Part shown: positions 1-28,000 of the stretch, one piece after another
Position numbering within the stretch: position 1 is the first letter of the stretch
Layout of the letters: each line of letters opens with the position of its first letter
From: Octopus vulgaris
Taxonomy: Eukaryota
Assembly (NCBI GenBank): GCA_951406725.2
Contig: OX597838.1
Coordinates: forward strand, 13,454,001-13,518,000
Length of the DNA: 64,000 bases
Direction of reading: 5' to 3'
Notes under the pieces: model-generated
Database searches by the model: none
What the model was told of the DNA's origin: nothing
What the model saw: the letters and a program-made list of their open reading frames with translations, nothing else
Program-made: the position numbers and the translations under genes

Positions 1-8
1 GAGTTTTT

Positions 9-210
9 GGATCTTTTCTGTTTGATAGACGGAATTTTCTAGTTAACTAAAAAATTTGAAACTTCGTTAAACTACGTTTAAGTTACTAATTACAATTTTG
101 TTTTCAATTTTGTTTACAATAATGTTTTCTTTTGACACATTCTACCAGTATACGAAGTTTCAAATTGTTTAGTTAACTAGAAAATTCCGTCTATCAAACA
201 GAAAAGATCC
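9..210. mobile_element. Short foldback/MITE
   Basis: ggatcttttctgtttgatagacggaattttctagttaactaa (9..50) is the reverse complement of about 169..210. Confidence 0.7.
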
Positions 211-1180: not shown

Positions 1181-1894
1181 CAAATGCATCTTCAAAACAC
1201 CTGTCCTTCCTTCACCCTTCTATGATACTATTTTCTCAGCTCTTGTATTTATTTGTGAACAGAACTGCGTATATTTCATCCTTTTGTACTACCAGTTATC
1301 CCTCATCTTAGAACTACTTCCCTTGTCACCCATCCTGTATTTTCAACATTATCCCTTAACACAATATTTTCTACGGAACACTTCTATACCCAGAACACAC
1401 TCTTGTACCTACCAGCAATGCTTTCCCTCCACTTTTGTTTGTCTTGAACAATATCCATCCCTATATACGTCTGCCTTCTGTTTCTGTCACTCTTTACTCT
1501 TTTACTTGTTTCAGTCATTTAACTGTGGCCATGCCGGAGCACCGCCTTTAGTCGAGCAAATCGACCCCAGGACTTGTTCTTTGTAAACTTAGTACTTATT
1601 CTATAGTCTCTTTTGCCGAACCGCTAAGTTACGGGGACGTAAGCACACCACCATCGGTTGTCAAGCGATGTTGGGGACAAACACAGACACACAAACATAT
1701 ACACACGCAGATACATATATATATATGTATATATATATATATACAGATACAACCAGAGTTTTGGTCAGTTAGCAACTGAACTTCACAACCTCATATGTTC
1801 TTAAAATTTAAATCTACATCTTTATCTGTATATTTACCTTCTCTAAAATGTTATTTGATTTGAAAGCTTTTATATTATTGGAAAACCTATATAA

Positions 1895-1983
1895 TTGGCT
1901 GACGAGCACTCAGCATCTTAAATTTGCTGTAATACTTACTACAGCTTTTAATAAAATGTTGTAGTATGAAACAATTGTACCAA
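1895..1983 (+). ncRNA. Minimal type I hammerhead ribozyme-like motif with large stem II insert
   Basis: ttgg-CTGACGA-g...t-GAAA-caattg-TA-ccaa: stem I ttgg/ccaa, palindromic stem III. Confidence 0.55.
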
Positions 1984-2128
1984 ATTACTGGAGTCTTTCT
2001 TGTTGCTTATTTTTTATTATAATTATTATTTTTTATTATAATCACCCCGCAAATTTTTATGGTTAACACCATACAAAATTCTGGTGCATCTAAATTAAGT
2101 ACCATATTCATTTGAATCTAAATAGTTA

Positions 2129-2185
<57 letters not shown>

Positions 2186-2189
2186 TAAT

Positions 2190-2830
2190 ATTTCCATTCT
2201 ACAAATTACACAGCCCAAGTGCAATCGAGAGGAAAATCAGAGGAAAGAATTTTATTGATAAATTCGAACTCAAGCTAAATAAGCAATAATAATAATACCT
2301 AGATAGCAGGAAAATTATCTTATTTAGGGTTAAAAGTTCTATTGCCACCACCATCACCACTAGCAACAATAATTAAGGTGCTGACAATGATGATGATGAC
2401 AATTGAAATATAAAAATCTCTGACAAATGCTATTTACAACATTTCTAAAAATAGCCCAACAATTGCTGCCTCACACAGGGTTAAGATACAGGACTCTTGA
2501 CATGTTCAACAAAGCGTGACGCCTAAACCAATCAGCTCAACCATCCAATCAGCTTAAGTAATTGAGTGATACTACACACTGATTGGTCAGAATACAGTTT
2601 GCAAAACTTAGCTGTATTTAAGGAACAGATTCAATCATCTCGCTACAGTCAAAAATTGTGAAGCATGACTGTCACCACTACTACATGAACCTGAAGATTG
2701 CAGAATTTAATGCATGAAAGTACTAGTTCAATCAGAATGAACACTTAACATTCTACTATTTTATTTTATTCTATTATATTATCTTATAATATATCGTTAT
2801 AAGATTGTAAATAAAACATGAAAATCAGAC
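2190..2830 (+). mobile_element. Penelope-like element 3' remnant (GIY-YIG C-terminus-like, then 3' region with hammerhead)
   Basis: translates in fragments as FPFYKL...ERKIR..NFIDKFELKLNK, resembling PLE endonuclease C-termini; begins at a (TA)n run. Confidence 0.45.
2686..2730 (+). ncRNA. Minimal type I hammerhead ribozyme-like motif
   Basis: tgaac-CTGAAGA-ttgca gaatttaa tgcat-GAAA-gtac-TA-gttca: 5-bp stem I. Confidence 0.65.
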
Positions 2831-2953
2831 AAGGTTGGAATTCCTTTTATTAAAATATTCTTCTATACACAATCACACACACCCATATATATATCTATCT
2901 ATATATATATATATATCTGTAAATGTAATATGTGGCAATTCTTCGGTAGCCAT

Positions 2954-3014
2954 GATAAAACTCTGAGCTTCAGATGCCAAGGTGGAAATCCACGCCGCCA
3001 TCTCTTCAGTTATC
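2954..3014 (-). ncRNA. Hammerhead-like motif, inverted copy of 3244..3304 with GAAA changed to GAAG
   Basis: reverse complement reads gataa-CTGAAGA-gatg...catct-GAAG-ctcagag-TT-ttatc. Confidence 0.5.
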
Positions 3015-3243
3015 CAGCCATCGGAAAAATGCTATGAAAAATGACCCCAGACATCGGTTGAGGACTCTACCCCCGCAGAAGAATTCAATATGGACGCCTA
3101 TTACATTAATTATTCTATGAAAAACATACCTATACCATCAAGGGAACTATACTCTAAGAAACTTTTGGAGAAAATTGCAGACCTGATTAAGCACATGAGA
3201 TGGAAAGTTAGGGTCATTTTTCATAGCATTTTTCCGATGGCCG

Positions 3244-3304
3244 GATAACTGAAGAGATGGCGGCGTGGATTTCCACCTCAGCATCCGAAATTCGGAGTTT
3301 TATC
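3244..3304 (+). ncRNA. Minimal type I hammerhead ribozyme-like motif in a Penelope-like pseudo-LTR
   Basis: gataa-CTGAAGA-gatg...catcc-GAAA-ttcggag-TT-ttatc: 5-bp stem I. Confidence 0.65.
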
Positions 3305-4033
3305 ATGGCTACCGAATAATTGTCACATATTACATTTACAGATAAATTCCCCTATTTACATAATATCGAGGTCTCTTTCATTCTTTTGTTGTCTTACCAT
3401 TTTTATCAATATATATATATACATATATACAACGGGCTTCTTTCAGTTTCTGTCTACCAAATCCACTCACAAGGCTTTGGTTGGCCCAAGGCTAGAGTAG
3501 AAGACACTTGCCCAAGGTGCCACGCAGTGGGACTGAACCCGGAACCATGTGGCTGGTGAGCAAGCTGTTTTATTTCATAGAAATTTGCCATAAAGGCATT
3601 ACACAGAGTAGCTTGCGGGCTAGACATAAACATTAATGAAGCGGATGATTATGATGAAAAATGATAAAGGCGCCCGCCGACCCTCATTTTTTTTGCCTCA
3701 AAAATTCATAAACTGAAGTAATGAACCTCTTACAAAAATGCAATTTCTTGGACCAAAAGTCCATACAATCAAAATATAGTGTATACGCCAATTAGAGGCA
3801 ATAAACCTCTACACTTCCTCCGCCAGCAAATCTTGTGCAACTTGCAGGCACTGTTTCCACCGAAATCGGGAGTTCGAATGGAGAATTCTGAAAATCTTGC
3901 CTCCACACAAGTCAATTATCATATTGCATTGTTTTTTCAGTGAGACTCGAGATACCTACCATTATGAATAATACCAAATGTACCTTTCGGATTTTTCAAA
4001 ATGTGATGTAAGTCTTTGGTATAGCAATTGCAT

Positions 4034-4125
4034 GCGGATGAAGAGAGCTTTAAACCATCCTTTATGTTGATTATACAATGATATAAGAATAGGTCGTTTT
4101 ATAAAGCTTGAAACACGTGTACCGC
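4034..4125 (+). ncRNA. Hammerhead-like motif with a core C-to-A change
   Basis: gcgg-ATGAAGA-gagcttta...taaagctt-GAAA-cacgtg-TA-ccgc: stems I and II intact, palindromic stem III. Confidence 0.55.
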
Positions 4126-4178
4126 GACATCCTTTGTGTTCTGTTTTTAATTTCATTTGATGTATGTATATATATATC

Positions 4179-4432
4179 CGGTGGCACGTAAAAAGCACCA
4201 TCCGATCGTGGCCGTTTGCCAGCCTCATCTGGCACCTGTGCAGGTGGCACGTAAAAGGCACCCACTACACTCATGGAGTGGTTGGCATTAGGAAGGGCAT
4301 CCAGCTGTAGAAACACTGCCAGATCAGACTGGAGCCTGGTGCAGCCTCCATGGCTTCCCAGATCCCAGTTGAACCGTCCAACTCATGCTAGCATGGAAAA
4401 CGGACGTTAAATGATGATGATGATGATGATGA
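4179..4432. mobile_element. SINE-like repeat ending in (GAT)n (copies at about 6380..6700 and 49795..50610)
   Basis: shared core ggagtggttggcattaggaagggcatccagctgtagaaacactgcc...catgctagcatggaaaacggacg(gat)n. Confidence 0.8.
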
Positions 4433-4729
4433 TATTATATATATATATATATATATATATGTACATATCTATATATATATAGATAGATAGAGATAGAGAT
4501 ATATAGATATGATGATGCGTAGCCTAGTGGTTAGAGTGTTGCACTCACAATCATGAGATTGTGGTTTCAGTTCCTAGACCAGGTGGTGCATTGTGTTCTT
4601 GAGCAAGACACTTCATCTCAAGTTGCTCTACAATCATTTAAATACCTGATGTGTGGTACACTATGCAACTGATCAGGCAACATATTTCTAATTTTGGAAT
4701 TCAGTGAATAAACTTCACTGAAAATATAT

Positions 4730-5113
4730 GGAAGCACTCCGTCGGTTACGATGACGAGGGTTCCGGTTGATCCAAATCAACGGAACAGCCTGCTCGTGAA
4801 ATTAACGTGTAAGTAGCTGAGCACTCCACAGATACGTGTACCCTTAACGTAGTTCTCGGGGATATTCAGCGTGACACAGAGAGTGACAAGGCCGGCCCTT
4901 TGAAATACAGGTACAACAGAAACAGGAAGTAAGAGTGAGAGAAAGTTGTGGTGAAAGAGTACAGCAGGGGTCACCACCATACCCTGCCGGAGCCTCGTGG
5001 AGCTTTAGGTGTTTTCCATCAATAAACACTCACAACGCCCGGTCTGGGAATCGAAACCGCGATCCTATGACCGCGAGTCCGCTGCCCTAACCCCTGGGCC
5101 ATTGTGCCTCCAC
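4730..5113 (-). mobile_element. tRNA-derived SINE (near-identical copy at 41535..41927)
   Basis: minus-strand head with A box (tggcccagNggttagg) and B box (ggtttcgattccc). Confidence 0.85.
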
Positions 5114-5163
5114 TGAAAATATATATGTTTACGAAGGCTAGACAGGTATCTTCAGCTAGCAGG

Positions 5164-5203
5164 CCAGACTGATGACGAGCAAGACTCAGAAACATGTCTC
5201 TGG
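5164..5203 (+). ncRNA. Minimal type I hammerhead ribozyme-like motif
   Basis: ccaga-CTGATGA-cgag caaga ctca-GAAA-catg-TC-tctgg: 5-bp stem I, GUC triplet. Confidence 0.7.
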
Positions 5204-5497
5204 ATGCAGGCCTAGCTGTTGGGGGTGCTTGTCTCCCCTTTGTAAACATAAGGACACAGGAAATGTGTCAAGGCCGACAGGAAGTGTTGATGCTTCCTAG
5301 GGCTAAACAGCGGTGGTGTAATTCCCTCTATGGGACTGTCAAGTTAAGTTGACATTATACAACTGATCTATCGTTCCACCACCGCTCATATCTCTCTGAG
5401 ATATTTAGAAATTTAATATTTCTAAGTATATATATATATATATACTAAAAGTACAAAGTGAATTTGCATTTTTATATTTTTATAATTGTACTTTATA

Positions 5498-5628
5498 ATC
5501 TCTGATGAGGCCTTGAGATATATATATATATAAGAAACTCATTTTTAACTGCATATTACCTCAATACATCTGACTAATATAGGCAGAATGAGATAACCTT
5601 TATCTACAGGCTGAAACAGCTGTAAGAT
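5498..5628 (+). ncRNA. Hammerhead-like motif with about 95-nt loop II
   Basis: atct-CTGATGA-ggcct...aggct-GAAA-cagctg-TA-agat. Confidence 0.6.
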
Positions 5629-5784
5629 CCATTTTGTGTGTATTATTTTTAGGGTATTATCTTACTTATTGATGTATATTGTTTTATTTTGTTGGATTTG
5701 GATGTTCCTATTTATGTAGTTATATATATATATATATCATCATCATCATCATCATCGTTTAGCGTCCGTTTTCCATGCTAATAA

Positions 5785-6092
5785 AAGGAGCACTCTGTCA
5801 GTTATAACGGTGAGGGTCCCAGCTTATGTGATCAACAGAACAGCTTTCTCATGAAATTAACATGCAAGTGGCTGAGCACTCCACAGACACATGTACCCTT
5901 AACATAGTTCTCAAAGAGATTCAGCACGAACCAGTATGACAAGGCTGGCCCTTTGAAATACATTTTTGCCAGCTGAATGGACTGGAGCAATGTGAAATTA
6001 AGTGTCTTGCTCAAGGACACAACGCGTAGCTGGGAATTGAACTCATGACCTTACGATTGTGAGCCGAATGCCCTAACCACTAAGCCACGCAC
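5785..6092 (-). mobile_element. tRNA-derived SINE related to 4730..5113
   Basis: head gcgtggcttagtggttagggcattcgg...gagttcaattccc; shares body with the 4730 copy. Confidence 0.75.
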
Positions 6093-6097
6093 CTTTA

Positions 6098-6135
<38 letters not shown>

Positions 6136-8259: not shown

Positions 8260-8340
<81 letters not shown>

Positions 8341-10609: not shown

Positions 10610-10622
10610 ATGGCTGAACCAC
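10610..10622 (+). CDS. FET gene coding exon 1 (MAEP, phase 1)
   Basis: ccaacATGGCTGAACCAC|gtaagt: good Kozak context, strong donor, CpG-richer surroundings. Confidence 0.85.
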
Positions 10623-11324
10623 GTAAGTAGAATCGGTTTGTTTCCTTCGGCGACTTTTGTTCCATTTAAAACGAAACTTCTTCGATCGTAATGTCGGTTA
10701 AAGCTACGTCGAAAGATGACTCGATGTTCGAGCTACGTTTCCCACTCATTTTCGATTCTTAATATTCAAGAAACCGTGTAGAATTTAGCGATTTAGTTTC
10801 ACCCATCTTCCGGCTTCGTTCCATGCGAAACGACAAAGAAGTGTGGCGGAAAAATGGCTGACAATTTGAAAAAAAAAAAAAAAAAAAATTTTTTTTTTTC
10901 CCTCCTTAACAATTTATCGTTACCAGCATCAATGTAAAGGGGCTGCTTTCGAATTCATTGCATTATTTCCCATTTTATCTCGACCTTACGAACAATACAC
11001 AGCCTTAATTTCAACGCCACATGTCTAATAAAGGGTTGTGTATAACCAAACAGGAGAGATTGCTCAATGCAACATCTCCTCCTCTTGGCTTCTTCTCTCT
11101 TTTTTCTCTGTGTCTGAGGGTTTTTATGTCTATTTCTGTCTTCCTGCCTGATTGAACGCGCAAAAAAAAAGAGCTAGAAATCTCTAAAGTTTGCAAACGG
11201 ATTTCTATTTTCTATATATATATGATGCAAGCTAGATTATATTAGTAGATTGAATGAATGTCTGGCCTCAACAAAAATCCATCCAAAGAATGCAATAGTA
11301 CATATGAACTTAGACATTTCTCAT

Positions 11325-11374
<50 letters not shown>

Positions 11375-11803
11375 AGTGCCATGCATATATCTCAGCAATC
11401 CATACACACACACATATATATAGATATATGTGTGTATATTATATCTAATATATTCATCTCTTGCTAGATGAGATACATTTGATCCCACCAATAACGAGTT
11501 TATTATCTAAATCTGCCTAAATGTATAAATACCAGACCTTATTTTGACAGCCAGCTTCCTGAAGATTTCATCTGAATGAAACAGTGCTAGTCCTGTAGAA
11601 GCTCCTTCTATAAAATAATATATATATATATATATATACTTAGTTTGATTTGAAAACCCCCACTAGAATGGGAGAAAGCACTAATATACATGATGTATAA
11701 AAAAATGTAATATACAATTAAATATCTGTAAATATAAACCATCCGACTTTCTGAGTACCTCATTTCTTCTAATATAAAATACCTGTACATCATCTCCAAA
11801 CCT

Positions 11804-11863
<60 letters not shown>

Positions 11864-12672
11864 AGGTTTGGAGATGATGTACAGGTATTTTATATTAGAA
11901 GAAATGAGGTACTCAGAAAGTCGGATGGTTATATATTTACAGATATTTAATTGTGTGTGTGTGGATACATAGGTCGACACGCATGTGGCGGCTCCCTTAA
12001 TATCCTACAAACTACAAATACATTTTGCCACATTTCGATAAGGACCGTTACACGAACCGCTCCTCGTCCTTTGGGTAGCTTTTTGCTGTTTGAAAATATT
12101 CCTTGATTTTTATTTGCCGTGTTTGTTTGTTCTTACCAAACATGTACATATATGTTTTTGTGTGTACACGCCCATACTGTTTCGAAATAAATAAAATAAA
12201 ATAAATTTACCCAAAGAAATTGTAATAAATAAATAAATGTATTAAATTTCCCCAGGTAAAAAAACCCACAAGGAGACTTCTAAATAACCACAAAAATTCA
12301 ATGAAGAAGCGCTAAGATGTCTATCCTCAAGAGTGAAAATAATTTTCCCCCACCTCATTCATAATGAATAAAAACAGTGATTAAAATTAGTAGTGGTGGT
12401 TGATCTCAAATCTTCTCTAAAACCGTGAGACGGGAGATATAGATAGAGCTTTTTGTTTTGATCAGATTTAGCTAATATATATCAAAGCCTACTTTATCCA
12501 GTGTCTTCTTGTTTTAAAACAGGATATGAATTTTGCTAACTATTTCTGAACACTCCTTGTAATAAGAGAGGCTCGCCTTTATCTCGCGCACAATTTCTTG
12601 TATGCGTGTGGTGGTTAAATTCAAATGTGCTTAGATGCGATATGTATCATCTATACTTATCGCATCCTTTTT

Positions 12673-12718
<46 letters not shown>

Positions 12719-15700
12719 CTTAGTATGTGTGGAGCATTGTTATCCAATGTTTAGAAATGGTAGGATTTGATTTTTAGGGCGATTTTTGGTTGCCGTTTCC
12801 TACACTGGTTTTCAAAAAAAAATGCTTTCGTCTTATGAATGTATTTGTGTGTATACACTCACACACACACGCATCATGTCTTGTATGTATGTCAAGCCTG
12901 TGCGTGTGTATACAACGTTTATTGTATGCGTGTATGTTAGGAGGAGGAGGAGAAGCAGCAACTCTTGTGTCATGACACAGTAGTCACTAATGGCGGGCTT
13001 CTCTCACAAATATTTACCAGATGTCTCTCGCTTCATTTTTTCTCTTTCTGGGCTACAGATATAATTTGTAAATATATATAATAAACATTGGATTAAATAG
13101 AAATGCAAAGTATACGTTCCGTAATAATGATGGTCATTCATAGATGTTTAAAAATAAGGGAAACCTTCCATAAGATGTTATATAAGAAGGCAACAGTGTA
13201 TGGTTGTGGCTTACTTAGATAGGAAGAGGAAAATGAAATATTCATTTCTCTTCATAGCAGCTCTAACTCTAAAATCTAGACGTTACATAATTTTTGATAT
13301 CCTAACGATTTTTTATGACTTTTAAAGCAAATTTTTTTTGTTTTAAATAAAGTATAAGTTTTGGAAATGTGTGTTCCTCATTTTCTGTTTTGTTCATATA
13401 TTTTTATGCCTTTGTAACCTGAAATTTATTTTTAGCACCATGTTGAGAAAGACGCATTGGTCTGTCTTTATTAGTGGCGAAGCTAAAGGACGTGTACACA
13501 AACTCTAAATAAAATTTAATCTAATTTCTTAATCGTTCGTAATGATCAAATGGTGAAGAAATTTACATTTGGTCGTCAAAAATTTAATCTTATAGTTTAA
13601 GAAGATTCGTGAACGTAATTTTATGATGTAATAGGGCACGTGCTTGCTATTTCATCTTGCTTCTATTTTCCGTTTTCCTTCCTCGAATGTTCTTTTAAAT
13701 TATTTACAATTTCATTTCTCAATGAAATTTGAAGCCGTGAATCTTAAATTTTGAAATTTCGAATCAAAATATATCTATAGTTTGCATTTTTCATATTATC
13801 GCCTTTAATATTAAGAAAGAGTATATAGTTGTATCTTAGATGGATTAAATGTCCTTTGTGTGTGTGAAAGGAAGACACACGTGCTCTTTTATAAAAGTGG
13901 TTGGTGGAGTTTGAAACGGGAACGTTTGATTTATTAGTTGCCATGGTGCGAGATGAATGTCTGGGCGCGCGGCCGAGTGGAAAAAAGTATCTTTTTTTTT
14001 TTAAATGTTAACGATTTTTGCTTTGAGATTAAGGTCAACAGTATACGATTCAACGATGCAAGCCACACAGCGACTGTCTATTTTTTTTTTTAGTGATCTC
14101 TTCGTCGTTGGTTACGATTTGACTGGTTCCTATGTATGAGACCCAGTTTGATGTGAACTTTATTTGTAATATTCATTTATTTGTAAATGATTAAGGGTTC
14201 ATAATCAGTTAAAATTGCAATGCTTTGATCTAAAACAGGTTGGAGGCACTTTGCTATGCATTAGGCCTTCTGGAGAGTAGCGTATTTGTGTTGAGAATAA
14301 ACCTTATTTTACAAATTCGTAGGTAAACATGTTATAAATTAATTTTTGAACTTTCGACTAGATTTTTGGAGGGTTCTCAATCTTTTATTTGCAAAAAAGG
14401 TATTGGTTTGTTAATGAAAATATTTCAATTCATTACGTGATATTATGAATGGAAATAATTTAGAACGAAATGCTTAAATGCTTAATAACAACCTTATGTA
14501 GACGTGCGAACAGAGACTAGTGTAATTTTCTATATATGAGGTATTTATAGAGAATATATTGTACAGGTGTACATAATTTAACATTCTATAAAGAAAGCAT
14601 TACGTCTCAACGATGTTGATACATACGAATAAGTTAAAAAATATATATTAAACATGTATCTGCACAGCTAGTCTTTCACACGTTAATTACATAAAAAAAC
14701 TTTTGGAAACAGGTGGTTATTTTAAAATTTTGGGGTGTAGGTTTCATAGTCTTCCTCCTATATATTTTTTTTCACTGGTTTAATTTTTGGTTAATCTTCA
14801 TCAAGCAAATCTATGCTCAAAGGTGTTCTATGATCCTGTTTTGCTTCTGGATATAATATCACATTATTCAGTGCATAATTTCTGAATATGGGTGTTGATT
14901 TCAATAAGATCAACGTTTTTCTTTCTCAGTTTCTCAAATGGAGTATGTGTGTATCTTAACTCATTGTGATGTACATAATATATTGCTCATCGAATTGGTG
15001 ACCCACATACATTTCGAATATGAGATCTATTTTTAAAAATAACAACATAATGACATGTATTTCTTATAAGAAATAAACTTCTCAAAGTAGATTTATTAAT
15101 GTTTGCTTCTTGATGGTTCATTTTTGTAACTCTGTAAAATTTGCCTGATAGAATGTTAAAATTGTTCCAGAGTAAAAATCACAGAAAAAAATATCTTGGG
15201 AGGCAGTGAATTTTGAGAGCTGCAGTTTAGCCAACATTAGATATGTACTGGAATGAGTATTCAGATTGGTTGAATTCCATCAAGTGTTATTTGGGTATAG
15301 AAGAAGAGTTTGGTTTTGTGACTGATGTGTGCATAATCTATTGTTTTGAGAACTCTAATTAAGACTTATATTTATATTTTCAGAATATAATTATTCAGGT
15401 GCCGGTGGTGGCCAAGCTGGGTAAGTTAACAAAATAGTTGAAATAATTTCGTTTTCGATTTATTTCTATGAAATTTTGCGTCATATTTTTGAATAACTGT
15501 CTTTGTTTTCCTTCACAGCTACAGCTACAATGCCTATGGCGGCACTGCTGCCGGAGACAGTAGCTCTTACCAGCCGGCTACTTACAGCCAACAGGTGAGT
15601 CCTTAATTTCTGGCTTGTTCAAGCTGTACACACAGCTTAACTTGGGCCCATTTTTTTCAAGTTTTCCTCAACATTTCATCCTTGTATATTCTGGCCAGTA

Positions 15701-18700
15701 TTTTTATATCTGTCAAGGGTGAAAATAAAAATAACAGCTAAATGTACTAGATTACTATTAATTAGAATTTATTATCCAGAACATTACTTAATTCTCTCTA
15801 CACGATTATTTTTTTCTAGAGTTCTTCACATTTTAGCATGAATAATGACTATACATGTAATAGAACAGTTTTAGCTAAATAATAGTTGCAGACTATAAAG
15901 TAGTGATAAAAAGTTTTCTTTTGTAATGAACATTCTATTTCTTGCTTTTCTTCAGGGATATGGTCAGACTTACAGTTATGACCAGTTGTCCTATAGTCCA
16001 TCTACGGCAGCACCCCAAGCTGCGGTCCCTTCATCTTATGCTCAACAGCCTGGTTATGGTCAAACAGCATATGGACAGACTGTATATAGTCAGTCAGGTT
16101 AGTTGGTTTTTATTTGGAATTTATTTAAAAAGCACATCTCCCTGCCTTTTACTACTTAAAATTATATATGTGACTTATTTCCAAATATTTTGAATTTTTT
16201 TTTCCCCTCTTATTTGAACTTGCGATCTAAAGCTAATAATACTTTACACTGCTTGCTTTTTTTCCCCCCTTTTATATCACTGGAATGTTTATATACTTAC
16301 TTTTCTCATAAATTTAAATGTAATAAATTTAACTTAATTGACTGCATAAACTTTTTGACTAACTGCCATAATTTACTGTTCTTGTATCCCATTATTGTAC
16401 ATTTAACGGTGTATATTGTCTACACAAGCATTATTTGTTAAAAATTTCTAATGCAATTTCTCTTCGTATTTGTACATTGGCTTTTCCTATATGCTTGCCC
16501 TTCATCCTGTTAGTATTAACACAGTTGTCACTTATTTTGTTAAACTTCAAAAGAGATGCTTATTGTTTATATATATATATACTTACATATATATATGAAA
16601 TAGTTTTGTTTTTAATTTTTTGGGGGGAGAAATGGGAGGCATCAAGCAGAGCAGGAACTCACAGTTTTGCTACTAATCTCTTTCAGGCCAGCCAGCTCAA
16701 CAGTCTTATGGTCAATATGGCCAGACATATGGTCAGAGCTCGGATGGTTCCGCCTACGGCCAACAATCTTCCTATTCTCAGCAAGGTAACCACAGATTGC
16801 TTCTAGGATATTTTCCATGATTATAAATGGTGTCTCCCAGTACAGCCATTCCCTTTTCTTTTCGTTTTTTCTTCTTGAAGTTTTAAACGTGCATGAATAA
16901 ATTTTGATCTTAAAAACCTTTTTTTAACAATTTTTAATGTAGCCTCCTGCCATAGATATGACTTAGGATGTAGATCTTCTATACAGCTGATAATTCATTG
17001 AAATGTTAAAGTTGCTGCTATTGTGTACAAGGATGTTGTCACAGTTTATATGAAACCTTATTGGAACAATGCTCTGGGTCACCATTTAGAGCTAATTGAA
17101 ACCAGTTCTAAAAGTTTATTGGTTTCCATGACTAGTTTATGTATAACCCAACCTTTGCCACCATTGGGCATCAAAGAGAGCACCCCTCCATACCTTTTCC
17201 TTACAATAAAATTTTCATGAAATACATATGAATGAATAAGCATCTCATTTGATAGTAATCTGAATGCTTAAGAATTCTTGTAGAAATAAACAGCATTAGT
17301 GTTGTAGTCACATGTTACTGTTTACTGAACAGAGCTGATTTCAACTTTGTTGTTATGGATACTGTCAGTGTATACTATATAGTGATATATTAAGCTAGTA
17401 TTGGGGAGACAGTAAGAATTACTGCTTTTGGGAATGTAGGTGGGTGTCGTTATAGTAACTGTCATGAAAAATTTTGAGTCAATATGGAGGAAATAGTGTC
17501 AGCTCTGAACATTTGGCTATAAATTTTTCATCACGGGGTTGTCTGCCCCAGGTGCTAGTCCAGCAACTGTGCAGTTAAAAGATGAGTGTTTGACTTGAAT
17601 TAACAACAGTGAAGTGTAATTTTATAAATTCTGTTTTCTCTGTAGTAACAATTAACTATTATCTCAAATATTAACAAATTAACAAGATAGATGTCTTAGT
17701 TCACAGATAACCACAGTACAAGTTCTGTATCATTTAAGTGTGACTATATTCCGTAACTTAGCAATTTGTATAATGTTTATACAAGTGTAGAACAGTGCTC
17801 ATGTTTTGAGAAACTTTCTAAGACTCTGCTTGCTCAGAAATTTGTCATTGGGTCATCTGACACAAGTATTTTGACTTGATTTGCTCTCTTTCAGTGATGA
17901 GTATCTCTTAGGCATTTTGACTGGTCTCAAAATCTGTTTTGATTTAGAAATCCGCCAACAATTTTTGCTCAAAAGCTGGCCAAATTAATATACACAGCTG
18001 AAACAGCAATTGGATTCCACTTCAGTCAATTATATTTTAGGTGATAATTTTGCTCAAAGAAACCATTCAAATTTGTGTAATATTTCATGTTTGAGTGCAA
18101 AATAAACATTGTTTCCTGTCTTTTGAGTTAACAGGAAAATGGCTTCATAATTTCTCTCAAAAAAACCTCAGCATGCTTTTCCAAGAATTGAAAGTTTTGT
18201 GTCTTTTGTGAGGAATAGTTTGGCATCTAATACACAAATAATCATATTTAGAATTATTAAATTTCTGTATTTTTGAGACTTGATACTGGAACATTTGGTT
18301 TTTAAAATACATTTTATTCTGCTGATTTTAATATATTTGTTTCACTTGACATAACTTTTTTTACTTGACATTTATAACTTTTTTTTTTTTCAGTTGACAA
18401 GTTTTACTACATTTTTAAAAAGCATATCTGATAGTTTTAGGTAAAAGTGGATTTTCATATGTCCTTTTAATAAATGAAAACATAATGTTTTGCTATTTAA
18501 ACTGACAGGTTATGGTCAGGCTGCACAACCTCCTGCTTCAAGCAGTAGTGGCAGTGGCGGTGGAAACGGGGGCTACAGTCAGCAAAGTTATGGTCAGCAG
18601 AACAGTAGCTACAGTGCTCCTCCTCCACAGCAGCAGCAACAGACTGGTTATGGTCAACAGAATTCCTATGGTCAACAGCCAGCCCAGCCACAAAGCAATT

Positions 18701-21700
18701 ATGGAAATCAGCAACATAGCTATGGTGACTACAACCAACAAGGTGGCTACGGAGGTGCTCCTCAGCAACCTCCCCCACAGGCACCATCTGGTGGCTATGG
18801 CGGCCCTCCTCCTCCCAAAAATTATGGCGGTAAGTGGCTAAGTATATCAGCTGTCGTTTTTCTTGTTGAAAATTAGCAAAATAAAATTTAGGGACTTGAA
18901 ATTGAATGTGGGTTTCAACATTGAATGTATTTATATTGTTTAGTAAATATTTTGAGAAAATTACTCTGATAGAAGAATTTTCAATGATACATTTGTACCG
19001 TTTTTAACTCTTTTGATATATTTCTGTAATAAAGGGGTGGGGGCATAAAAATCCCAATATTTTTGATTTACCTAAAACCTCATTGGGATGCAGATCAATA
19101 ATCATGCATTTTTCTCAATTGGGCTATAAACATACTCTCATATTGTAGTTTTCCTATATATATATATATATATATATATCTCTTGGTATCTATAAGTTAC
19201 AGGGCATTCTTATGTAGATTTATTAAAGGTAAGATGCAAATGTGTATTTAGTTTTTCTACATTTCTCTATATCTGAATCCATATTCTATTGAGTGTTAAG
19301 GTTTGGTTAGTAATATTAACCTGTGCACAGTTGTAACCATCAGTTCATGATTTTCTTTTTCAGACAATCGCAGTAGTAGTCGTGGTGGAGATCGTAGTGG
19401 CAGTGGCGACCGTGGTGAGCGCGGAGATCGTGGCAACAGTAGTGACAGAGGAAGTGGCAATTCAGGCTATGGGTGAGCTTAATTTTTCTATTTCCCCCCT
19501 AAAACTCTCATCTTGGTACATGACACTTAATTTCCTTTAAAATGTGTTTTCTAAAGAAATCTTGGACAGTAAGAGGAGTCAAGTTGTTGGTTCCAACGGA
19601 CATGTTTCCCTCCCATAAACAACTTGTCGGTAACATTTTCTTAATGGTGCTCTCTCCTCCGTTGATATTGGTAAGACATGTTACGTGCAAATTCTTTTAC
19701 AACACCTTTGTCACATTTCGGTGACTGTTGCGTTTAATCGACTATGACCTTTTGGCTTGTGTAAATTCTCAAGGTTACCTTCCCACTGCAATATCATCAT
19801 GAAACTGTTCTCCATTGGTCCAACTCATTTATTGTTATGAAATTGAAAGCTGTACAGTAGGGAAAACATGGTATGGATGAGTGGGTGGAAGTGTTTCACT
19901 TGGTCAGCATTTACAAAAAAAAGGACACGAGCATTCCAGGGAAAAGTTGTAAAATAATTTTTTATTTTGTTTTTACTTTTGCGCAAATTCTTTTTGGTGC
20001 ATTCAAGGACTCAAAAAAGACTCATATATGGGGGAAGAAATCAAAAAATTCTGAAGTTTCATCAAAACAATTTAAAAAAAAAATTTTTTTTAATTTCAAA
20101 AGACAATTTTTTTTAACATACATGAAATACTCTGGTACACTTGGTTGATATATTTTGCCTTGTCTCTAGGCTGTTTTTGCATGCAATATTCTGAGAATAT
20201 GGATAAGACTATTTGTTAGTCTGCTGGATTATCACTGAGTGTTGGTGGTATATTTCTTTGAATATGAATTATAGAAATTGAAAAGCTTATATGATTTTCT
20301 TAAATTGTTTCAAGCTTTAACAATCTAAATTGGTAGCTTCAGTTCTTTCATTATTTAGGATGTGATGGTAATGATGAGTTTGAATGTTTTGGCTGAATAC
20401 ATCTTTGCCATGCTTCTTATTTCAAAATCCTACAGTTTGTCTCTTTTGGTCAGTTGCTTAGTTCACTTAGGGTGATATATTAATCTATAATGGAAATTCT
20501 TAGAATCTCCTTTGCCATTTGGTTTTCAAATCCGTTCCTGCAGTAACAAGCTGTTTACATTTTATCAGCCCGTATCACCAAGGATAGTTGAACCTGTTGC
20601 AGCGATTGCCAATGTTTGCGTCATATCCAAACTGAGGGTGTAAAATTTGTCTCCTGGCTTTGTTTAATTGCAAGAAACTTAGTTTCTCAAGTATTTTTTT
20701 TCATCAAACTTGCATTTTCAAAAACTAGTTATGATGGTCATAATTAAAAATTAAAGGAAAATTATAAGAATTGTTGGGTGTGCTCAAAAGGTTTTATGAA
20801 ATGTGTTTATAAACAGTCCAGTAAGGTGTGCACATACGCTTTCTCTACAGCTTAGCAACTAACTGTTAAGTTATGCCATTGTGTGTGTGTGTGTGTGTGT
20901 GTATACATATGTATATATATGAATGAAAGACTGGAATGTTTGTATTGTGACATATGATATTGGTACCTGAACTCTTAGTTATCTGGATTGTGTTCAGTTC
21001 CACTGTATGAGTATTGTAAATAAAACACATTCTCATTGTATTCCATTGCTTCAAATCACTGGTTGCAGGTTTATTTGTCAGGTGGCTTAAATGACTCCAA
21101 TTAACTGATATTACTGGAGAGATTTTGAGGTGCGTTTGATATTAAAAGTTGAATTTAAAAAACAAAAAAGAAACAGCTACTGTTGGAGTATTGGAATGTG
21201 TTGGAATCTTTAAAAGTAATATAGGATTTGGATTTTTTTAAGAAAAATTTTTTTCTCATTTCTCATTTTCAGAGAAATCATTATCTATACATATTTTCCC
21301 ATAAATATGAAAACTGGTTCCATTACAAGCTATTGTTGCACCAATGCAATCATGAGATCCACAACTTGGCTTCACTGAATCCTGCAATGGATAAACCTAT
21401 CCCATTATTTCTCCCATCATATTTATTGGTTACTTGGTGTATTTTTTCCTTCAGACTTTCCCAAACCGAAACTTAAGGTTCTGCACCATTTCTATTTTCC
21501 TCCCTAGTGTAAAAAAAAAAATTATTAGTGAACTTTCAGTAAATTAAGTGAAATTATTAATATTAATTTATTACATGACATATTTTCCTTTTACTATTTA
21601 ATTCTCTTGCTTAAGTATTTAGTGTTTTTGGGGACCAGAAAAATTTGCAGAACTGAATGAGTGAATGAGTTTCAGTTGTTGGTATTGATGACCTGATTAA

Positions 21701-22029
21701 AATTAAAATTTTGTACAGATTGATACATTCAGTATATATAATTTTTCTGGTCCCAATGTCATTTCATTTACCCCACCTTTTTTTTTTTTCTTTACATATA
21801 CATCTGTTCAGAAATAGCAAAACTGGTCTTATTAATATTGTGTGTGTGTGATATACATGTGTATGGGCTTATTTAAAAGAATTTTTTTTTTTTCTAAGTG
21901 TGCTTTTAGTATAAATTGAAAATTGGGAGTATGTGTACTCTACTAAATTCTTTAGATTTTGGTAGAATACATATAAAGGGTACTTTGTGGGCATATTTTT
22001 AGTTTCCAAGGTTTACCATTCCTCAATCG

Positions 22030-22060
<31 letters not shown>

Positions 22061-25000
22061 TTGTATGCAAATAGCTGTTTTCACCCTCATTTTTTTCTCT
22101 TGTAATTGTGGCCGCCTTGTATAATAATGTTTGTTTTGATGATGAAAAATAATGCAAACTTTCTTTTTTTTTTTAAAGTCATCTATTTCTGACAGGTCAC
22201 ATTGAAGGTCAGTTTCGAGACACTAATGTGTTGCAAAATAAAATCAAAATATAAAGACCAATATAATGCTTTAAAATCCTTATATACTGAAGTGCTGCTC
22301 TAAAAGCAAACAAAAGTTACAGGAAAAATACAATGATTTTTCTTTAACTTTTGAGCAAATGTTTTAACCTGTAAGAAAGCAAGTGAAACAAAACCCAGTC
22401 CATGCTGACCCCCTAAAATATCAGCTTAATGCTTTCCCCTGCCCTGTTCCTTCTCTTGTGGTTTTGGTGTTCAACAGTGTCTGCATACATTACAGAAAAA
22501 CCTATCTTGGTATATAGTTAGGCCATGCTGGTACACAAATAGAAGTCTTGTATATATAGATATATATATATGTTATATATATATAAATATATATGAATGA
22601 GTTTTTTAAAAAAACATTTTTTTCTTCAAAACATTTTTAAATCTCTGAAAACGTTTTTTCTTTTTCAATCATCCATTTTGATAAGTAAAGTTGTATTTAA
22701 GACAAAAAAAGAAAAAGGTAAAACAACAAAACAAATTAGTACCAATCAACCAACCAGAAAGTTGTTGTCCCAACTGCTGTCTCTATGGTGTGTCTCTAAT
22801 GCAAAACATTAGCTTGTGTTGCTTATGACGTGTCTCAGCTACTACAGCATGACTTTGTAATGAGTAGCCCATTGAATCCATCTACACCAAGAGGTTTCTG
22901 GTATATTGTTATATATACATATATGTATGTATATATATATTCTTTCCTCAGGTGGTTTGCTTATTAGCCAACGAAAGATATATTAAAAGGTGAATTCAAA
23001 AGTTCTAGATGAATATATATATACATGTCTATATGTATATGTTTTGGTGTTTTTAATTGGTTTATTTTTTTTTTCCGTGGTTGAAATGGTTTGAAAAATT
23101 TAAATGTGCCCCTATTTAGTGTAAACTAAATCAGATGACTGTAAAAGGGTTAACAGCTATGAAATTGTTCATGATTATATATTTTTTTTTTTGAAATGGT
23201 GTTTGCCCACACGGGGTTTAAAAAAAAAAAAGAATTAAAAAAAAAACAATTTACAGTTTTGCAACAACAGCCTTAGCGTGTCTTAGAAATGTCCTGCATT
23301 TGAGCTGCTTGGAAATGGTGAAAAATGACCGGGTGAAGAGAAATCTTGGCCTTGTCAGTAGAGCATTCCATCTGTAGGATGGACTGTTATTACTGAACTT
23401 TCCTAATGTATTTCAGCGGTGGCAGAGGAGGCTTCAACAAAAGTTATGGTGGTGGTAAGTGACTGGTTAAGGCTGTTACAGCCTCCTCTTTTCTTATCCT
23501 CGGTATTTCACACACACTCAACTTCCACACTTGCTCACATACACACACATTCGGACAAGTCAACAAGCAAACACCCCCACTGAGAAATTGCATAACGTCT
23601 TTGATTTCACAACAATCCATGACATTCAGAATTCTTCAAAACTGTTAATGGTATTGTGTGTGTATATGTATTTGATTATTTGGGCATTTAACTACGACGG
23701 TAAAAATACCATAGACAACATGTACACTCATGGTTGTTTTGAAAATTAGATCAGTCTTTTGTGACTAATTACAATGAAAGCCAGAATGTTTGTAAGGTAA
23801 TTTACATAATGGTGAATTAGAATCTGGTTATTCTTACTATCAATGATGTACACTGCTGAGCCATTTCGGTATGTTTTAGAGCATACGGCTGTGTTTAAAA
23901 CAGACACAAAAAAAATGGAATGTGCATATCGGTAAACCTCTACAACTGGTGTTCATTTGGTATATTACAAACAAAATGGTCTGTAAAAATGTGAAAATGT
24001 CAAAAAAATTTGGTGAAAAAACATTGTGTGTATTTGATGGGTTAAAATAAGGTGAGTGGTATTATGAAAAAGAAAAAAAAAAAAGGCTGTTGAAATGACA
24101 TTGGTATTGTGTACAAGAATGTACTTACTACCCAATCACTTGATGTACAATGTTCCAAAGGTGCGCACACACACAAAAAAGGGTTTTGAGACAGTTGGTT
24201 GAATGGACAACAGTTAGTGATTATTTTTCTTCCACTCCACACCATTGATTTTGTTTTTTTTTTATTTTAATTTACTTACCTGATGTAATTTTTTTTTTTT
24301 TTATATTGCCACCTTCCATTTCGGATTGATCAAGGTCTTTATATTGGTCCTGATTACTAGTGACATTTCTCTGCTAGCCAACTATATTTAAAATCCACTG
24401 AGATATATAAATCAGCACGCACACACACGCACATGTATATATATGCATGCTAATTAGTAATATTGAAACGCTGTTTCATTGGTTCTCTGTTGAAAACTTA
24501 GGTTTTCTATTTAAAACAAAACAAAGATTTATTTTTTTTTTTTTATTCAAGGGTTAAAAATATATGGTGATTGCAAACATTTTAAATATTTCCATCCAGT
24601 TCCACTATATTAATCTGCATAATTATATTTCGAAATCTTGGTTGCTGAGTAAAGATATCCAAGTGGTTTAATGACTTTCCAGTACAACTGTGTATGTTGA
24701 GTTGAAATCAAAGCTGCATATTGATGGGAAATCTAGACGGTTTTAAAGCAGTGAACCCAAGTACTTTACCCTTTAATGCTCAGTCATTATCACTATTAGC
24801 CTCTAATGTGATGAGATCCTTGAAATGTTGGTTTTACTGTACAGTCATCTTAGTAACCTGAACATATTTGATATATGTTGACTTAGTGGTTGTTAGGCTT
24901 CTACTCCATCCCTTCTTTCTCGGAGATCCTCATGTGTCTAATTTCAATAAACTTTTGTTTCATGGGGGAAAAGAATTGTTTTATTGGCCTCTATTGATTT

Positions 25001-28000
25001 TTTTTGTTTTATGTGGCAATTTTTCTCTTATGTTTTAATTTTCTAAAGTTTCTTTCTTTCTTTAAATTTTTCTTCATGCAGGCGGAGGTGGCAGTGGCAG
25101 TGGTTATGGAGGTAAGTTTTTGTAGCTTTTTTGAATAATTCCATTTACATAATTATTATTAACCCTTTAACATTTTAACTGTGGGGTGTATCTGGCCCAA
25201 ATTATCTACCTGTTGTACGTTCAAAAGTATTTGGATCATCAGTGCTAAGAAATTGGGCTGTTAATTCGAAGTGTAATGGGATACCTATAGTTGATTTTTA
25301 ACAATATTGGTGGTAAGTGTAAGAAGTTGACTTCACAATAATAGTCTCTGGTTTGATTTCTTTGGCACCTTGAGCAAAGGTCTTCCTACCATAGCTAAGA
25401 ACACACCAATACTTGGTGTAGAAAATGGAGTCTGCGGAACCTGTGCATGCATACACGGGCACACACACATAAACACTATACAAAGTATCACTATTATTTT
25501 TTACAATGCCAACTGTCTACAGAATTTATGAAATTTAAATGTATTGCTCTATAAGATATTGAATTTCTAATGTAATTTCATTGTAGATGGACCAATTATG
25601 GAAATGCCTGATACAGTGTTCGTTTGTGGACTAAATGAAGAGGTCACTGAAGATGCTCTAATTGAACATTTTGGAAGCATTGGTGTCATTAAGGTAAATT
25701 GAAGCATTAATTTATTTTGTATAAGGAAGATGGAGGAACCCTTTTGTCCAAGTCACTAAGTGTTGTGGTTCTGTAATTAGAAAAATTGTTCTCAGTATAC
25801 AAGATTATTAATTACTTCTACATAGATTGTTGCCCCCCCCCCTTTTTCCTAAAATTTAATGAAATTTGAGTTGCACAGTGTTTGTAAATTATTTTTGTGA
25901 ATTCCTTTCTTAAGACTGATAAGAAAACAAGCAAACCAAAGGTGTGGATCTACAAAGACAAGGCGACTGGTCGCGGAAAAGGCGAGGCTACTGTGACATA
26001 CGATGACCCTGAAAGCGCAAAGGCAGCTATCAATTGGTTTAATGGTAAGTTTAGTATTTCAATATACTGTACGTGAAGTTTCTGGAACATAAAAATTATT
26101 ATAAAGTTTTAAATGCGTGAAAGAAGTTACACTTTAAAGTGAATGATAGGAAGTCGAAAATATTTTTAGGATTCAATATGTCTAGGCATTGGTCATACTG
26201 GAGTTACACTCATTTAGATGTCCTGGTCTATTTGGTGGATTCTGATTTAAAATAGAAATTTTCGCCTTCTAAAGGTGTCATTATTAAGATCGGACACTTA
26301 TTTAAATGGCTTTATTCCCAAATGATGGTGTGTGATAGTTATCTCTTTCCCTGGTTTTGTTTTCAAATTCCAGAAATATTTAGTACTAAAATGAAATCTA
26401 GGTTTCATAAAATCGATAACATCCATTGAGAATGAATTTTGGTTGCTGTTAAATTGGGTTCAGTGTTCAGACCTAAATTTAGCTGTTGATGGGACTCACA
26501 AGTTTTAAAAATTCATATATTGGACTTTGTCTGTCTGTAGAAATCAATATTCTAATATTATTTAATTTGTCTTCAATTGTTAAAGATAAGTGTTTTTTTT
26601 ATGTTTGTCTAATCTGTTTTCTCACTAAATTTTTCAGAAAAAGATTTCCAGGGCAGAATAATTAAGGTTGAAATGGCCCAGAGAAAAGCTTGGTCTAGTG
26701 GCCGTGAAGGAAGAGGTTTGTTTTGTTTTTCTGTTCTCTGTTTTAGTAATGACAGAATGTTATCAAATGTATGGAGGAGATGAGAAAAATGGCTTGATTT
26801 AAAGTTGTGTATACCCTTGCTTTGATATTAGTGATGGTTCTAAATTAGCATCTGTTACATATGAGCGATGTTGATTGCTTTCAGTCCATTATAACTATGT
26901 CTGACAATAAGGAAATATTACCTTGGAAACCAACAAGAGTTGATGACCGGTATCTGGTTATAGAAAAATTGCTTCAAAAACTTTCGTCTGATCTGTGGAA
27001 ATGTGGACATGGACTGTTTGATCTTTAAAATTGAAGTTCTAATTGTCCCACTTGACTAATACAGTTGTCTGTTAATATTAAATACATTAAGAAGTAATTT
27101 TAACTGTTTCATTGGAACTTTGCTTTAAGAAATCCTTATTTAAAAGAAATATATAAGTTATTGTTTGTGAATTTAGTAATATCAAATGAGGTGCAAGTCT
27201 TTGGAAGACACATAGGTACATAGTAACTTAAGATTTCTGTGATCATTTGATCTTTATGTACACACACACACATACCATACATATCCAAGATTGTTGGTCT
27301 ATACATGTGTAGACTGATCTTGAGTTCTTCTGCCCTTGCTAGAAATAGCAACTGAATACCTTCAAATCATTTTACTGTCTTACATAATGAATGACCATGT
27401 TGAGCAATATAATCTTGTGTACCTGTTAATTACTAGATGGTCAATTCTAGAACACCTCAATCGTGTCCAAGAAAGCTGAACCAACGATGCAGCTACAAAT
27501 ATCATACTTCCCTTCTAAGACTGCAATATAGTCTTTTCTACTGTAGGCACAAGATCCGAAATTTTGGGAGGGGGCCAGTCAATTGCATTGACCCCACTAC
27601 GCAACTGGTACTTAATTTGTTGACCTCGAGAAGGATGTAAGGTAGTTGACTTCGGCAGAACTTGAACTCAATGTAAAGACAGACAAAATAGCCTGGCGTG
27701 CTGACATTTCTACCAGCTTGCTGCTGTGTTTTTTAATACTTAACCTCTGTTTGCTGTTGGTAACGGAGATTCACAGCAAATATTTCTTAATATACTTGCT
27801 GGTGACATGTAAAAGGCATCCAGCACTCTATGGAGTGACTGGCATCCAGCTGTAGAAAACACTCCAAAATAGACTGGAGCCTGGTGCAGTTCTCCTGCTT
27901 GCCAGTTCCATTTAGATTTGTACATCTAAGTTGTCTGATTCTGACATTTCTCATAAATATGTCTAATAAATGTTCTTTGTATTTTTTAAGGTGGCAGAGG

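What the first reader, a model, noticed from the sequence alone, without database searches (positions are those of the whole stretch)
1895..5628. Dense cluster of seven distinct minimal hammerhead-ribozyme-like motifs in under 4 kb
Seen: seven motifs of the form stem I-CTGANGA-stem II-GAAA-stem III-TH-stem I at 1895, 2686, 2954(-), 3244, 4034, 5164 and 5498. Apart from the 2954/3244 inverted pair, each has a different but correctly complementary stem I (ttgg/ccaa, tgaac/gttca, gataa/ttatc, gcgg/ccgc, ccaga/tctgg, atct/agat). Stem III is short and mostly palindromic (caattg, gtac, cacgtg, catg, cagctg). Known: Penelope-like retroelements carry minimal type I hammerheads with short palindromic stem III, thought to cleave as dimers; PLE protein remnants lie at 2190 and 3090. 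Inference: about six unrelated PLE or retrozyme families have piled up beside (TA)n runs about 5-9 kb upstream of the FET gene, six of seven on the + strand. This could act as a self-cleaving barrier to read-through transcription. Several copies have core or stem II closing-pair defects, so some may be dead.
Basis: partly seen in the sequence, partly recalled or inferred. Interest (0 to 1): 0.8.

Follow-up and report, generated by a model that had tools for sequence, protein, structure and literature searches.

The report
Pile-up of Penelope retroelement hammerhead ends
The seven small self-cutting-RNA motifs are real, but they are ribozyme-bearing pieces of six different repeat families (three Penelope-like retrotransposons, one retrozyme, two unplaced) of a kind this octopus-type genome carries in tens of thousands, unusually crowded here but likely without any job for the host.

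Summary
All seven motifs are at the stated coordinates; five pass a strict hammerhead descriptor (0.003 expected in shuffles). Each lies in a dispersed repeat family: two Hydra-clade and one Neptune-type Penelope-like element (PLE), one ~355-nt retrozyme, and two families with the same architecture but no ORF found. That makes six insertions.

The genome holds about 20 intact motifs per Mb (~56,000 extrapolated). A genome-wide sub-pattern gave 7,239 + and 7,246 - matches. The crowding is a real outlier: at most 2 per 3.8 kb in 1.15 Mb of control DNA, and 0.07-1.2 such clusters expected per genome by chance.

The barrier idea is not supported. The nearest upstream gene found (KCTD10-like) points away from FET. 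Two motifs have broken cores and a third a damaged stem II. The copies have decayed like their siblings, and their family-specific stem III palindromes cannot form the dimers such ribozymes need. Two of the 'closing-pair defects' are family traits, not decay.

Best reading: neutral serial insertion at (TA)n tracts in a local hot spot. This is a known kind; Hydra PLEs with hammerheads are already published for octopus, and this scan noted similar clusters in other genomes.

The parts
1745..2131 (+). 5'-truncated 3' end of a Hydra-clade PLE (family F1895): 3' UTR, hammerhead, ~150-nt tail ending in (TA)n
   Evidence: 40 of 3430 candidates scored, best 83-93%; longer copies L066, L068, L074 carry a Hydra-type endonuclease end upstream in sense
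1895..1983 (+). Minimal type I hammerhead, core intact, base of stem II damaged (G.U closing pair then a C.A mismatch); predicted cut after 1979
2132..2191 (.). (TA)n tract between two insertions
2190..2884 (+). 5'-truncated 3' end of a Neptune-type PLE (F2686): last 32 codons of the GIY-YIG endonuclease (2191-2286), 3' UTR, hammerhead, tail
   Evidence: 91% amino-acid identity to the 775-aa ORF of L287, which has RVT_1 and GIY-YIG matches
2686..2730 (+). Minimal hammerhead identical to its family majority, U.U at the base of stem II; predicted cut after 2725
2911..3046 (-). Inverted, truncated partner of the 3244 repeat; its hammerhead (2954-3014) has GAAG for GAAA and four CpG-type changes in the arm; likely dead
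3047..3208 (+). 5' UTR and first ~40 codons (ATG 3090, RWK motif) of a Hydra-clade PLE, joined to the upstream edge of the hammerhead repeat
3212..3408 (+). Hydra pseudo-LTR (F3244) with hammerhead 3244-3304 (core intact, G-C closing pair, 9-nt stem III region; predicted cut after 3299) and ~105-nt tail to (TA)n
   Evidence: the same motif follows the ORF in sense in L270 and its homologue recurs every 2.59 kb in the tandem L268
3920..4160 (+). Repeat family F4034 with hammerhead 4034-4125; this copy has C3 replaced by A (23 of 24 siblings keep C), likely dead; parent ORF not found
4682..5425 (+). One unit of a ~355-nt non-LTR retrozyme (F5164) with a 10-nt terminal redundancy, interrupted by a SINE-like insertion (4730-5110) with a 14-nt target duplication
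   Evidence: head-to-tail trimer in L303
5164..5203 (+). Minimal hammerhead equal to the family majority, C.A at the base of stem II; predicted cut after 5198
5462..5720 (+). Repeat family F5498 with hammerhead 5498-5628 (core intact, 104-nt stem II region; predicted cut after 5624), flanked by (TA)n; parent ORF not found
10610..31250 (+). FET-family gene (context only); first coding exon inferred at 10610

Best explanation
The cluster is six separate insertions of hammerhead-bearing repeats (three Penelope-like retrotransposon pieces, one retrozyme, two unplaced families) that likely landed one after another at (TA)n tracts in a local insertion hot spot and likely do nothing for the host. Shown: each motif belongs to a dispersed family; family copies end a fixed 40-230 nt past the ribozyme in (TA)n; three families connect to Hydra- or Neptune-type ORFs and one to a tandem retrozyme unit; the local density is far above background. 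Inferred: reverse transcription starts at the tail just 3' of the ribozyme and usually stops early, so the ribozyme is the part most often copied. Each insertion leaves (TA)n beside it and so renews the target, and the spacer between two divergent genes tolerates the additions. In the parent elements the ribozyme would cut tandem precursor RNA as a homodimer; the solo copies here would be inactive or nearly so.
For: - Family membership.
- Tail lengths to (TA)n cluster per family.
- ORF links. Retrozyme trimer.
- The structure is real across families: stem II pairing, not required by my descriptor, has 3 or more pairs in 28 of 32 family representatives against 8.7 with shuffled partners, 0 of 5000 shuffles reaching the observed mean.
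- Background: 23 strict hits in 115 x 10 kb, 0-1 in three shuffles; 7,239 + and 7,246 - matches to one sub-pattern against 492 and 486 control.
- Ordinary decay: private differences 1.0-3.5% in the six main copies and 5.1% in the inverted partner, against sibling medians of 2.2-5.2%; core hits in two copies.
- Stem III self-duplexes -4.6 to -11.1 kcal/mol, cross-pairs weaker than -3 except 4034 with 5164, and 4034 is core-mutated.
- Published: Hydra PLEs insert in (TA)n and carry hammerheads, including Hydra-1_Obim; a single minimal hammerhead showed no cleavage, dimers little.
Against: - The cause of the hot spot is not shown. General clustering is weak: 70 other-family insertions per Mb beside family copies against 50 per Mb at random, and never more than 2 per 3.8 kb in the random set.
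- (TA)n density is only about twice the mean (12 runs in 4.6 kb against 12.8 per 10 kb).
- The surrounding 260 kb is at background density.
- All six main copies share one orientation.
- Five of six main copies keep an intact core.
- F4034 and F5498 were not tied to an ORF or a tandem unit.
- No cleavage or transcription data.
Confidence: 0.75

Rival explanations
1. Same elements, but no hot spot: this is simply the chance extreme of about 140,000 independent insertions, picked out because it is striking.
For: A Poisson calculation expects 0.07 (intact only), 0.24 (all detected) or 1.2 (with the mild local enrichment) such clusters per genome. The library misses families (for example the one at 11553), so the true density is higher. 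No over-dispersion was seen in 1.15 Mb.
Against: The chance that one given 64-kb window holds such a cluster is 2e-6 to 3e-5. The first three insertions abut directly through (TA)n, as serial nesting predicts.
Confidence: 0.15
2. Targeted hot spot: under-wound DNA between the divergent KCTD10-like and FET promoters would extrude (TA)n cruciforms that the PLE GIY-YIG endonucleases prefer, concentrating (and perhaps orienting) insertions there.
For: The divergent gene arrangement is shown. The excess is confined to this spacer within 264 kb. TA repeats are proposed to form cruciforms (PMC9890227, search listing only). Under-winding behind polymerases and structure-selective GIY-YIG nucleases are recalled knowledge.
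Against: Seven 10-kb stretches centred on double-CRE motifs held 3 insertions (43 per Mb, no excess). This test is weak and the sites were not shown to be promoters. The TA-rich part of the same spacer at about -3 kb to 0 has no detected hammerhead. Cruciforms are symmetric and do not by themselves explain one orientation.
Confidence: 0.12
3. One reading: the host keeps the cluster as a self-cleaving barrier that stops + strand transcription from running into the FET promoter.
For: Six of seven motifs are on +, five with intact cores. A CpG-rich, CRE-containing promoter-like patch lies just left of the window (about -300 to 0), so some + strand upstream-antisense RNA is conceivable.
Against: The upstream neighbour is divergent. 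Dimer partners are incompatible. Monomer folds mostly mis-pair the core. Decay is ordinary. 5'-OH ends are poor Rat1/XRN2 substrates, and cleavage alone did not terminate transcription in a yeast reporter. In Anolis, no RNA-seq reads begin or end at the PLE hammerhead site.
Confidence: 0.04

Closest known systems
Minimal hammerheads of metazoan Penelope-like elements (Cervera & de la Pena 2014, PMC4209133)
   Same: Type I, 4-5 bp helix I, short palindromic helix III, many sequence families per genome, mostly solo copies from truncated PLEs, opposite-strand pairs 100-700 bp apart.
   Different: Reported counts are about 2,000-9,000 per genome with a different descriptor, against ~56,000 extrapolated here. 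G10.1-C11.1 is less fixed here (G-C in 8 of 32 family representatives). Stem II regions reach 104 nt. No six-family cluster is described in the part read.
Hydra clade PLEs, including Hydra-1_Obim of Octopus bimaculoides (Craig et al. 2021, PMC8557442)
   Same: RWK, DKT and CxCX5C motifs, no CCHH, ~2.5-kb unit, (TA)n insertion, sense hammerhead after the ORF with an odd 9-nt stem III region and U at the cut site.
   Different: F3244 and F1895 are other families than Hydra-1_Obim (different stem sequences; compared by eye). A related family here has many intact 717-aa frames and tandem units.
Neptune-type PLEs
   Same: GxKF, DKG, CX2-5CxxC linker, C-terminal GIY-YIG with CCHH in the full-length relative L287.
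   Different: No tree was built, so Neptune versus Nematis rests on motifs only.
Non-LTR retrozymes of animals (Cervera & de la Pena 2020, PMC7229834; bioRxiv 10.64898/2026.07.22.740005)
   Same: ~355-nt non-coding unit, head-to-tail array, one type I hammerhead per unit. A U.U base of helix II like that of F2686 is described for an axolotl motif that works as a dimer.
   Different: F5164 has a minimal rather than canonical hammerhead and was seen mostly as monomers; circular RNA not tested.

Membership tests
Minimal PLE hammerhead | Core CUGANGA / GAAA / UH | tested here: met
   Met in 5 of 7 window motifs; not met in 4034 (C3A) and 2954 (GAAG). Core equal to the family majority in 122 of 151 sibling copies.
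Minimal PLE hammerhead | Short helix I closing a type I topology | tested here: met
   4-5 Watson-Crick pairs in all; required by my descriptor, so not independent. 25 distinct stem I 4-mers among 32 families.
Minimal PLE hammerhead | Helix II that covaries between families | tested here: met
   28 of 32 with 3 or more pairs against 8.7 for shuffled partners.
Minimal PLE hammerhead | Short palindromic helix III region | tested here: met
   Perfect 6- or 8-nt palindromes in five families, a 9-nt near-palindrome in F3244.
Minimal PLE hammerhead | Conserved G10.1-C11.1 pair | tested here: inconclusive
   G-C in F3244 and the F1895 majority, G.U in F4034 and F5498, U.U in F2686, C.A in F5164. The paper also describes an unpaired base at the 5' end of stem II, so the register is uncertain.
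Minimal PLE hammerhead | Located in PLE terminal repeats | tested here: inconclusive
   Met for F1895, F2686, F3244; F5164 is a retrozyme; no ORF found for F4034 (19 loci) or F5498 (19 loci) with three PLE protein queries.
Minimal PLE hammerhead | Self-cleavage as a dimer | not testable with these tools
   Needs an in vitro assay.
Hydra clade PLE (F3244, F1895) | RWK motif, DKT, CxCX5C linker, no CCHH | tested here: met
   Read by eye in ORFs of L268-L271; RWK in window 3090-3208; CxCX5C upstream of F1895 in L068. RWK and DKT were not seen for F1895, whose N-terminus was not recovered.
Hydra clade PLE (F3244, F1895) | Insertion into (TA)n | tested here: met
   (TA)4+ within 152 nt of the motif end in 17 of 19 F1895 loci and within 144 nt in 21 of 24 F3244 loci.
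Hydra clade PLE (F3244, F1895) | Placement in the RT phylogeny | not tested
   No tree built.
Neptune-type PLE (F2686) | RT plus C-terminal GIY-YIG with CCHH, GxKF, DKG, CX2-5CxxC linker | tested here: met
   775-aa ORF of L287: RVT_1 E 2e-6, GIY-YIG E 3e-5; motifs read.
Non-LTR retrozyme (F5164) | Short non-coding head-to-tail repeats, one type I hammerhead per unit | tested here: met
   354-355-nt trimer in L303, 2 of 3 units passing the strict descriptor.
Non-LTR retrozyme (F5164) | Expressed as circular RNA | not testable with these tools
   Only contigs were available; they show neither ends nor strand.
Host-domesticated transcription barrier | A same-strand gene upstream and conserved, active ribozymes | tested here: not met
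   The nearest upstream gene found is divergent; no sign of local constraint. Activity untested.

The most novel reading that the evidence does not exclude
Spacers between divergent active promoters are genuine multi-family landing pads for Penelope-like elements, because transcription-driven under-winding exposes (TA)n as cruciforms for their GIY-YIG endonucleases. This locus, with six young same-strand insertions from Hydra, Neptune and retrozyme families, would be the type case and would point to what the PLE endonuclease actually recognises.
Probability: 0.12. Interest if true: 0.55.

Novelty: new member of a known kind. Interest (0 to 1): 0.25.

Why it matters
As found, it matters modestly. 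It shows that this octopus-type genome holds roughly 35,000-84,000 intact minimal hammerheads in at least 25-32 families, including a retrozyme family and a recently active Hydra family. I did not find such a census in print (searches; the octopus repeat annotation PMC13282606 has no occurrence of 'ribozyme'). That is a large natural set for testing which minimal variants cleave. The cluster itself would matter only if hot spots of this kind prove systematic, which would bear on how PLE endonucleases pick targets, or, much less likely, if the host uses it.

Tried and rejected
- Rfam found no hammerhead at either threshold, so it could not be used.
- I suspected 3575-3915 of being a PLE endonuclease remnant belonging to the 4034 motif. 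Rejected: it is part of another repeat, and none of its 14 relatives carries the 4034 segment.
- Contigs of four public runs laid on 1750-5760 were dominated by other repeat copies. The putative RNA run covered 16 of 30 bins, chiefly high-copy repeats, and contigs cannot show ends or strand, so this is no evidence either way on transcription. One contig of a run labelled as a different organism bridges the 4682 junction without differences, a weak hint that this insertion is shared. The piece at 3574-3669 is not locus-specific (98-99% copies exist elsewhere).
- CpG richness did not identify promoters, because CpG-rich repeats are common.
- The promoter-proximity test was cut to 7 sites (70 kb) and is weak.
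- A small alignment had one row in the wrong orientation and was not used.
- A pattern search for tandem pairs did not test clustering.
- Lunse et al. 2017 on dimer cleavage is not held and is cited only through a review.
- A PDB search with a Hydra ORF found nothing significant.
- Pfam on 228 upstream and spacer ORFs found no host gene inside window 1-10,600; short or non-coding exons would be missed.
- Rows dropped before counts: overlapping duplicate loci L024, L086, L124 (and L070, L071, L122), self loci, and sibling rows under 80% identity (12 rows with these duplicates and the window's own inverted copy, of 163).
Full report
Observation. A descriptor scan of both strands recovers the six + strand motifs at the stated coordinates with the stated stems. 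The seventh (2954-3014, minus) is one arm of a 152-nt inverted repeat and has GAAG in place of GAAA; 4034 has A in place of C3. Five motifs pass the strict descriptor in 1801-5700, against a mean of 0.003 in 300 dinucleotide shuffles. Rfam does not detect them. The window lies in a 2.8-Gb genome of 227 contigs. I call it octopus-type from recalled SINE features, genome size and likeness of one element to the published Hydra-1_Obim; this is inference.

Each motif is part of a dispersed repeat. Searches of the genome with each segment returned 1,334-3,430 candidates for five segments, 40 scored each, with best identities of about 83-97%; the 2190-2884 element dominated the search with the whole region. 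In siblings the ribozyme is followed by a family-specific tail of about 40-230 nt (up to about 350 in F5498) and then (TA)n, 5' ends vary, and inverted partners are common.

Family identities. F2686 is the end of a 775-aa RT plus GIY-YIG ORF with Neptune-type motifs. F3244 belongs to ORFs with the RWK, DKT and CxCX5C motifs that define the Hydra clade (PMC8557442 section 11), and its 2954 copy is the inverted partner of the same insertion. F1895 continues upstream, in three longer copies, into a Hydra-type endonuclease. F5164 is a ~355-nt unit that occurs as a head-to-tail trimer elsewhere, hence a retrozyme; the window copy is one unit split by a later SINE-like insertion with a 14-nt target duplication. 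F4034 and F5498 share the architecture but were not linked to an ORF in 19 loci each.

The fold is under constraint in the parent lineages. Among 32 family representatives, stem II, which my descriptor did not require, has at least three pairs in 28, against 8.7 with shuffled partners. Among 151 sibling copies, departures from the column majority were 2.0% in the core and stem I against 5.5% in flanks; the flank figure is inflated by subfamily differences and truncation, and siblings were the best matches to the window copy. The U.U and C.A closing pairs at 2686 and 5164 are family traits, not decay.

Background. In 115 evenly spaced 10-kb stretches (1,149,900 called bases) there were 23 strict hits and 1, 1 and 0 in three shuffles. 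That is about 20 per Mb, or ~56,000 genome-wide (35,000-84,000 by Poisson arithmetic). An exact sub-pattern gave 7,239 + and 7,246 - matches against 492 and 486 for the reversed control. Adding decayed copies by similarity gives 50-52 insertions per Mb, a lower bound, with at most 2 per 3.8 kb. Beside 123 family copies, other families occur at 70 per Mb (26 in 369 kb), and the 260 kb around the cluster is at background. Six insertions in 3.75 kb is therefore an outlier: 0.07-1.2 such clusters are expected per genome, but only 2e-6 to 3e-5 per given 64-kb window. I read this as a local hot spot; chance is not excluded, and my sample is too small to see how heavy the tail is.

The barrier idea. 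FET is on +. The nearest upstream gene found is a KCTD10-like BTB gene on the minus strand, with its first coding exon about 7.6-7.8 kb left of the window; IFT20 exons on + lie about 29-33 kb left, beyond it. So the cluster sits in a spacer between divergent genes, with no adjacent + strand gene found to read through. A promoter-like patch with two CRE motifs just left of the window has unknown direction, which leaves room for some + strand RNA. Minimal hammerheads showed no cleavage as monomers and little as dimers (PMC4209133, parts 1-2 of 4 read). Here the stem III palindromes pair with themselves but not with each other, except 4034 with 5164, and 4034 is core-mutated. Predicted monomer folds mostly mis-pair the core. 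The copies carry 1.0-3.5% private changes (5.1% in the inverted partner), like their siblings. A 5'-OH end is described as a poor Rat1 substrate (PMC3241649 passages), and no reads were found to end at the hammerhead of an Anolis PLE (PMC11167929 passages). In favour of the idea remain the shared orientation of six insertions (p about 0.03, post hoc; 7 same and 13 opposite among neighbouring pairs elsewhere) and five intact cores. Public contigs were uninformative on transcription.

Mechanism. Shown: family identity, tails ending in (TA)n, truncation and inversion, young age, local excess. Inferred: reverse transcription starts internally at the tail (as shown in vitro for an Anolis PLE) and usually stops early, so the ribozyme is the part most often copied. 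Each insertion leaves (TA)n next to it, and the first three insertions abut through such tracts. A review states that PLEs tend to insert into or next to existing PLE copies (PMC6765202 passage). Why this spacer in particular is unexplained; the cruciform idea is a hypothesis with one weak negative test (3 insertions in 70 kb).

What is known. Minimal PLE hammerheads, Hydra elements in octopus with (TA)n targeting and a hammerhead (PMC8557442 passages, section 11 and supplement rows) and animal retrozymes (PMC7229834 passages; bioRxiv 10.64898/2026.07.22.740005 part 1 of 5, supplements closed) are all described. An octopus repeat annotation lists 31 recently active Penelope-like families and general TE hot spots but does not mention ribozymes (PMC13282606 passages). 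Searches showed no octopus hammerhead census; subscription papers, including Lunse et al. 2017, were not available. Earlier notes of this scan describe similar smaller clusters in other genomes. Verdict: real, a new member of a known kind, interest 0.25.

Noticed in passing
window 11553-11603 (+): An eighth hammerhead-like motif, with a 16-nt stem III region, in sense orientation in the inferred first intron of FET; it belongs to another dispersed family ending ~20 nt before (TA)n, seen in at least 8 other held loci.
   Followed up: partly
window 50792-50869 (-): A further strict hammerhead of yet another family, with a 7-bp stem II.
   Followed up: no
L268 (G000:C3:37227500-37237400) and many places: A very young Hydra family with many intact 717-aa frames and 2.59-kb tandem units; in the one unit printed, the hammerhead core reads CCGAAGA (U4 to C).
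   Followed up: partly
window 3047-3212 and L032-L042: In 11 siblings, as in the window, the first ~40-50 codons of the Hydra ORF are joined to the upstream edge of the hammerhead, with junctions that differ by a few bases; recurrent template switching is one reading, but the query selected for this form.
   Followed up: partly
L251:9700-10000 (just left of window position 1): CpG-rich promoter-like patch with two TGACGTCA motifs and GAC/GGC repeats; direction and gene unknown.
   Followed up: partly
L251-L254: KCTD10/TNFAIP1-like gene (minus) next to IFT20 (plus), here convergent; I recall IFT20 and TNFAIP1 being neighbours in human too (recalled, not checked).
   Followed up: no
window 39338-40194 (-): Another decayed Hydra PLE ORF fragment, 37-48% identical to L268's protein.
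   Followed up: no
window 47325-48143 (+): 272-aa open frame with a major royal jelly protein/yellow-like Pfam match, E 4e-7.
   Followed up: no
window 1-218 and 717-1178: Two related elements with long terminal inverted repeats (67 and 158 nt arms), MITE-like.
   Followed up: no
window 8959-10096: 48-nt minisatellite, 23.5 copies, about 0.5 kb upstream of the inferred FET start codon.
   Followed up: no
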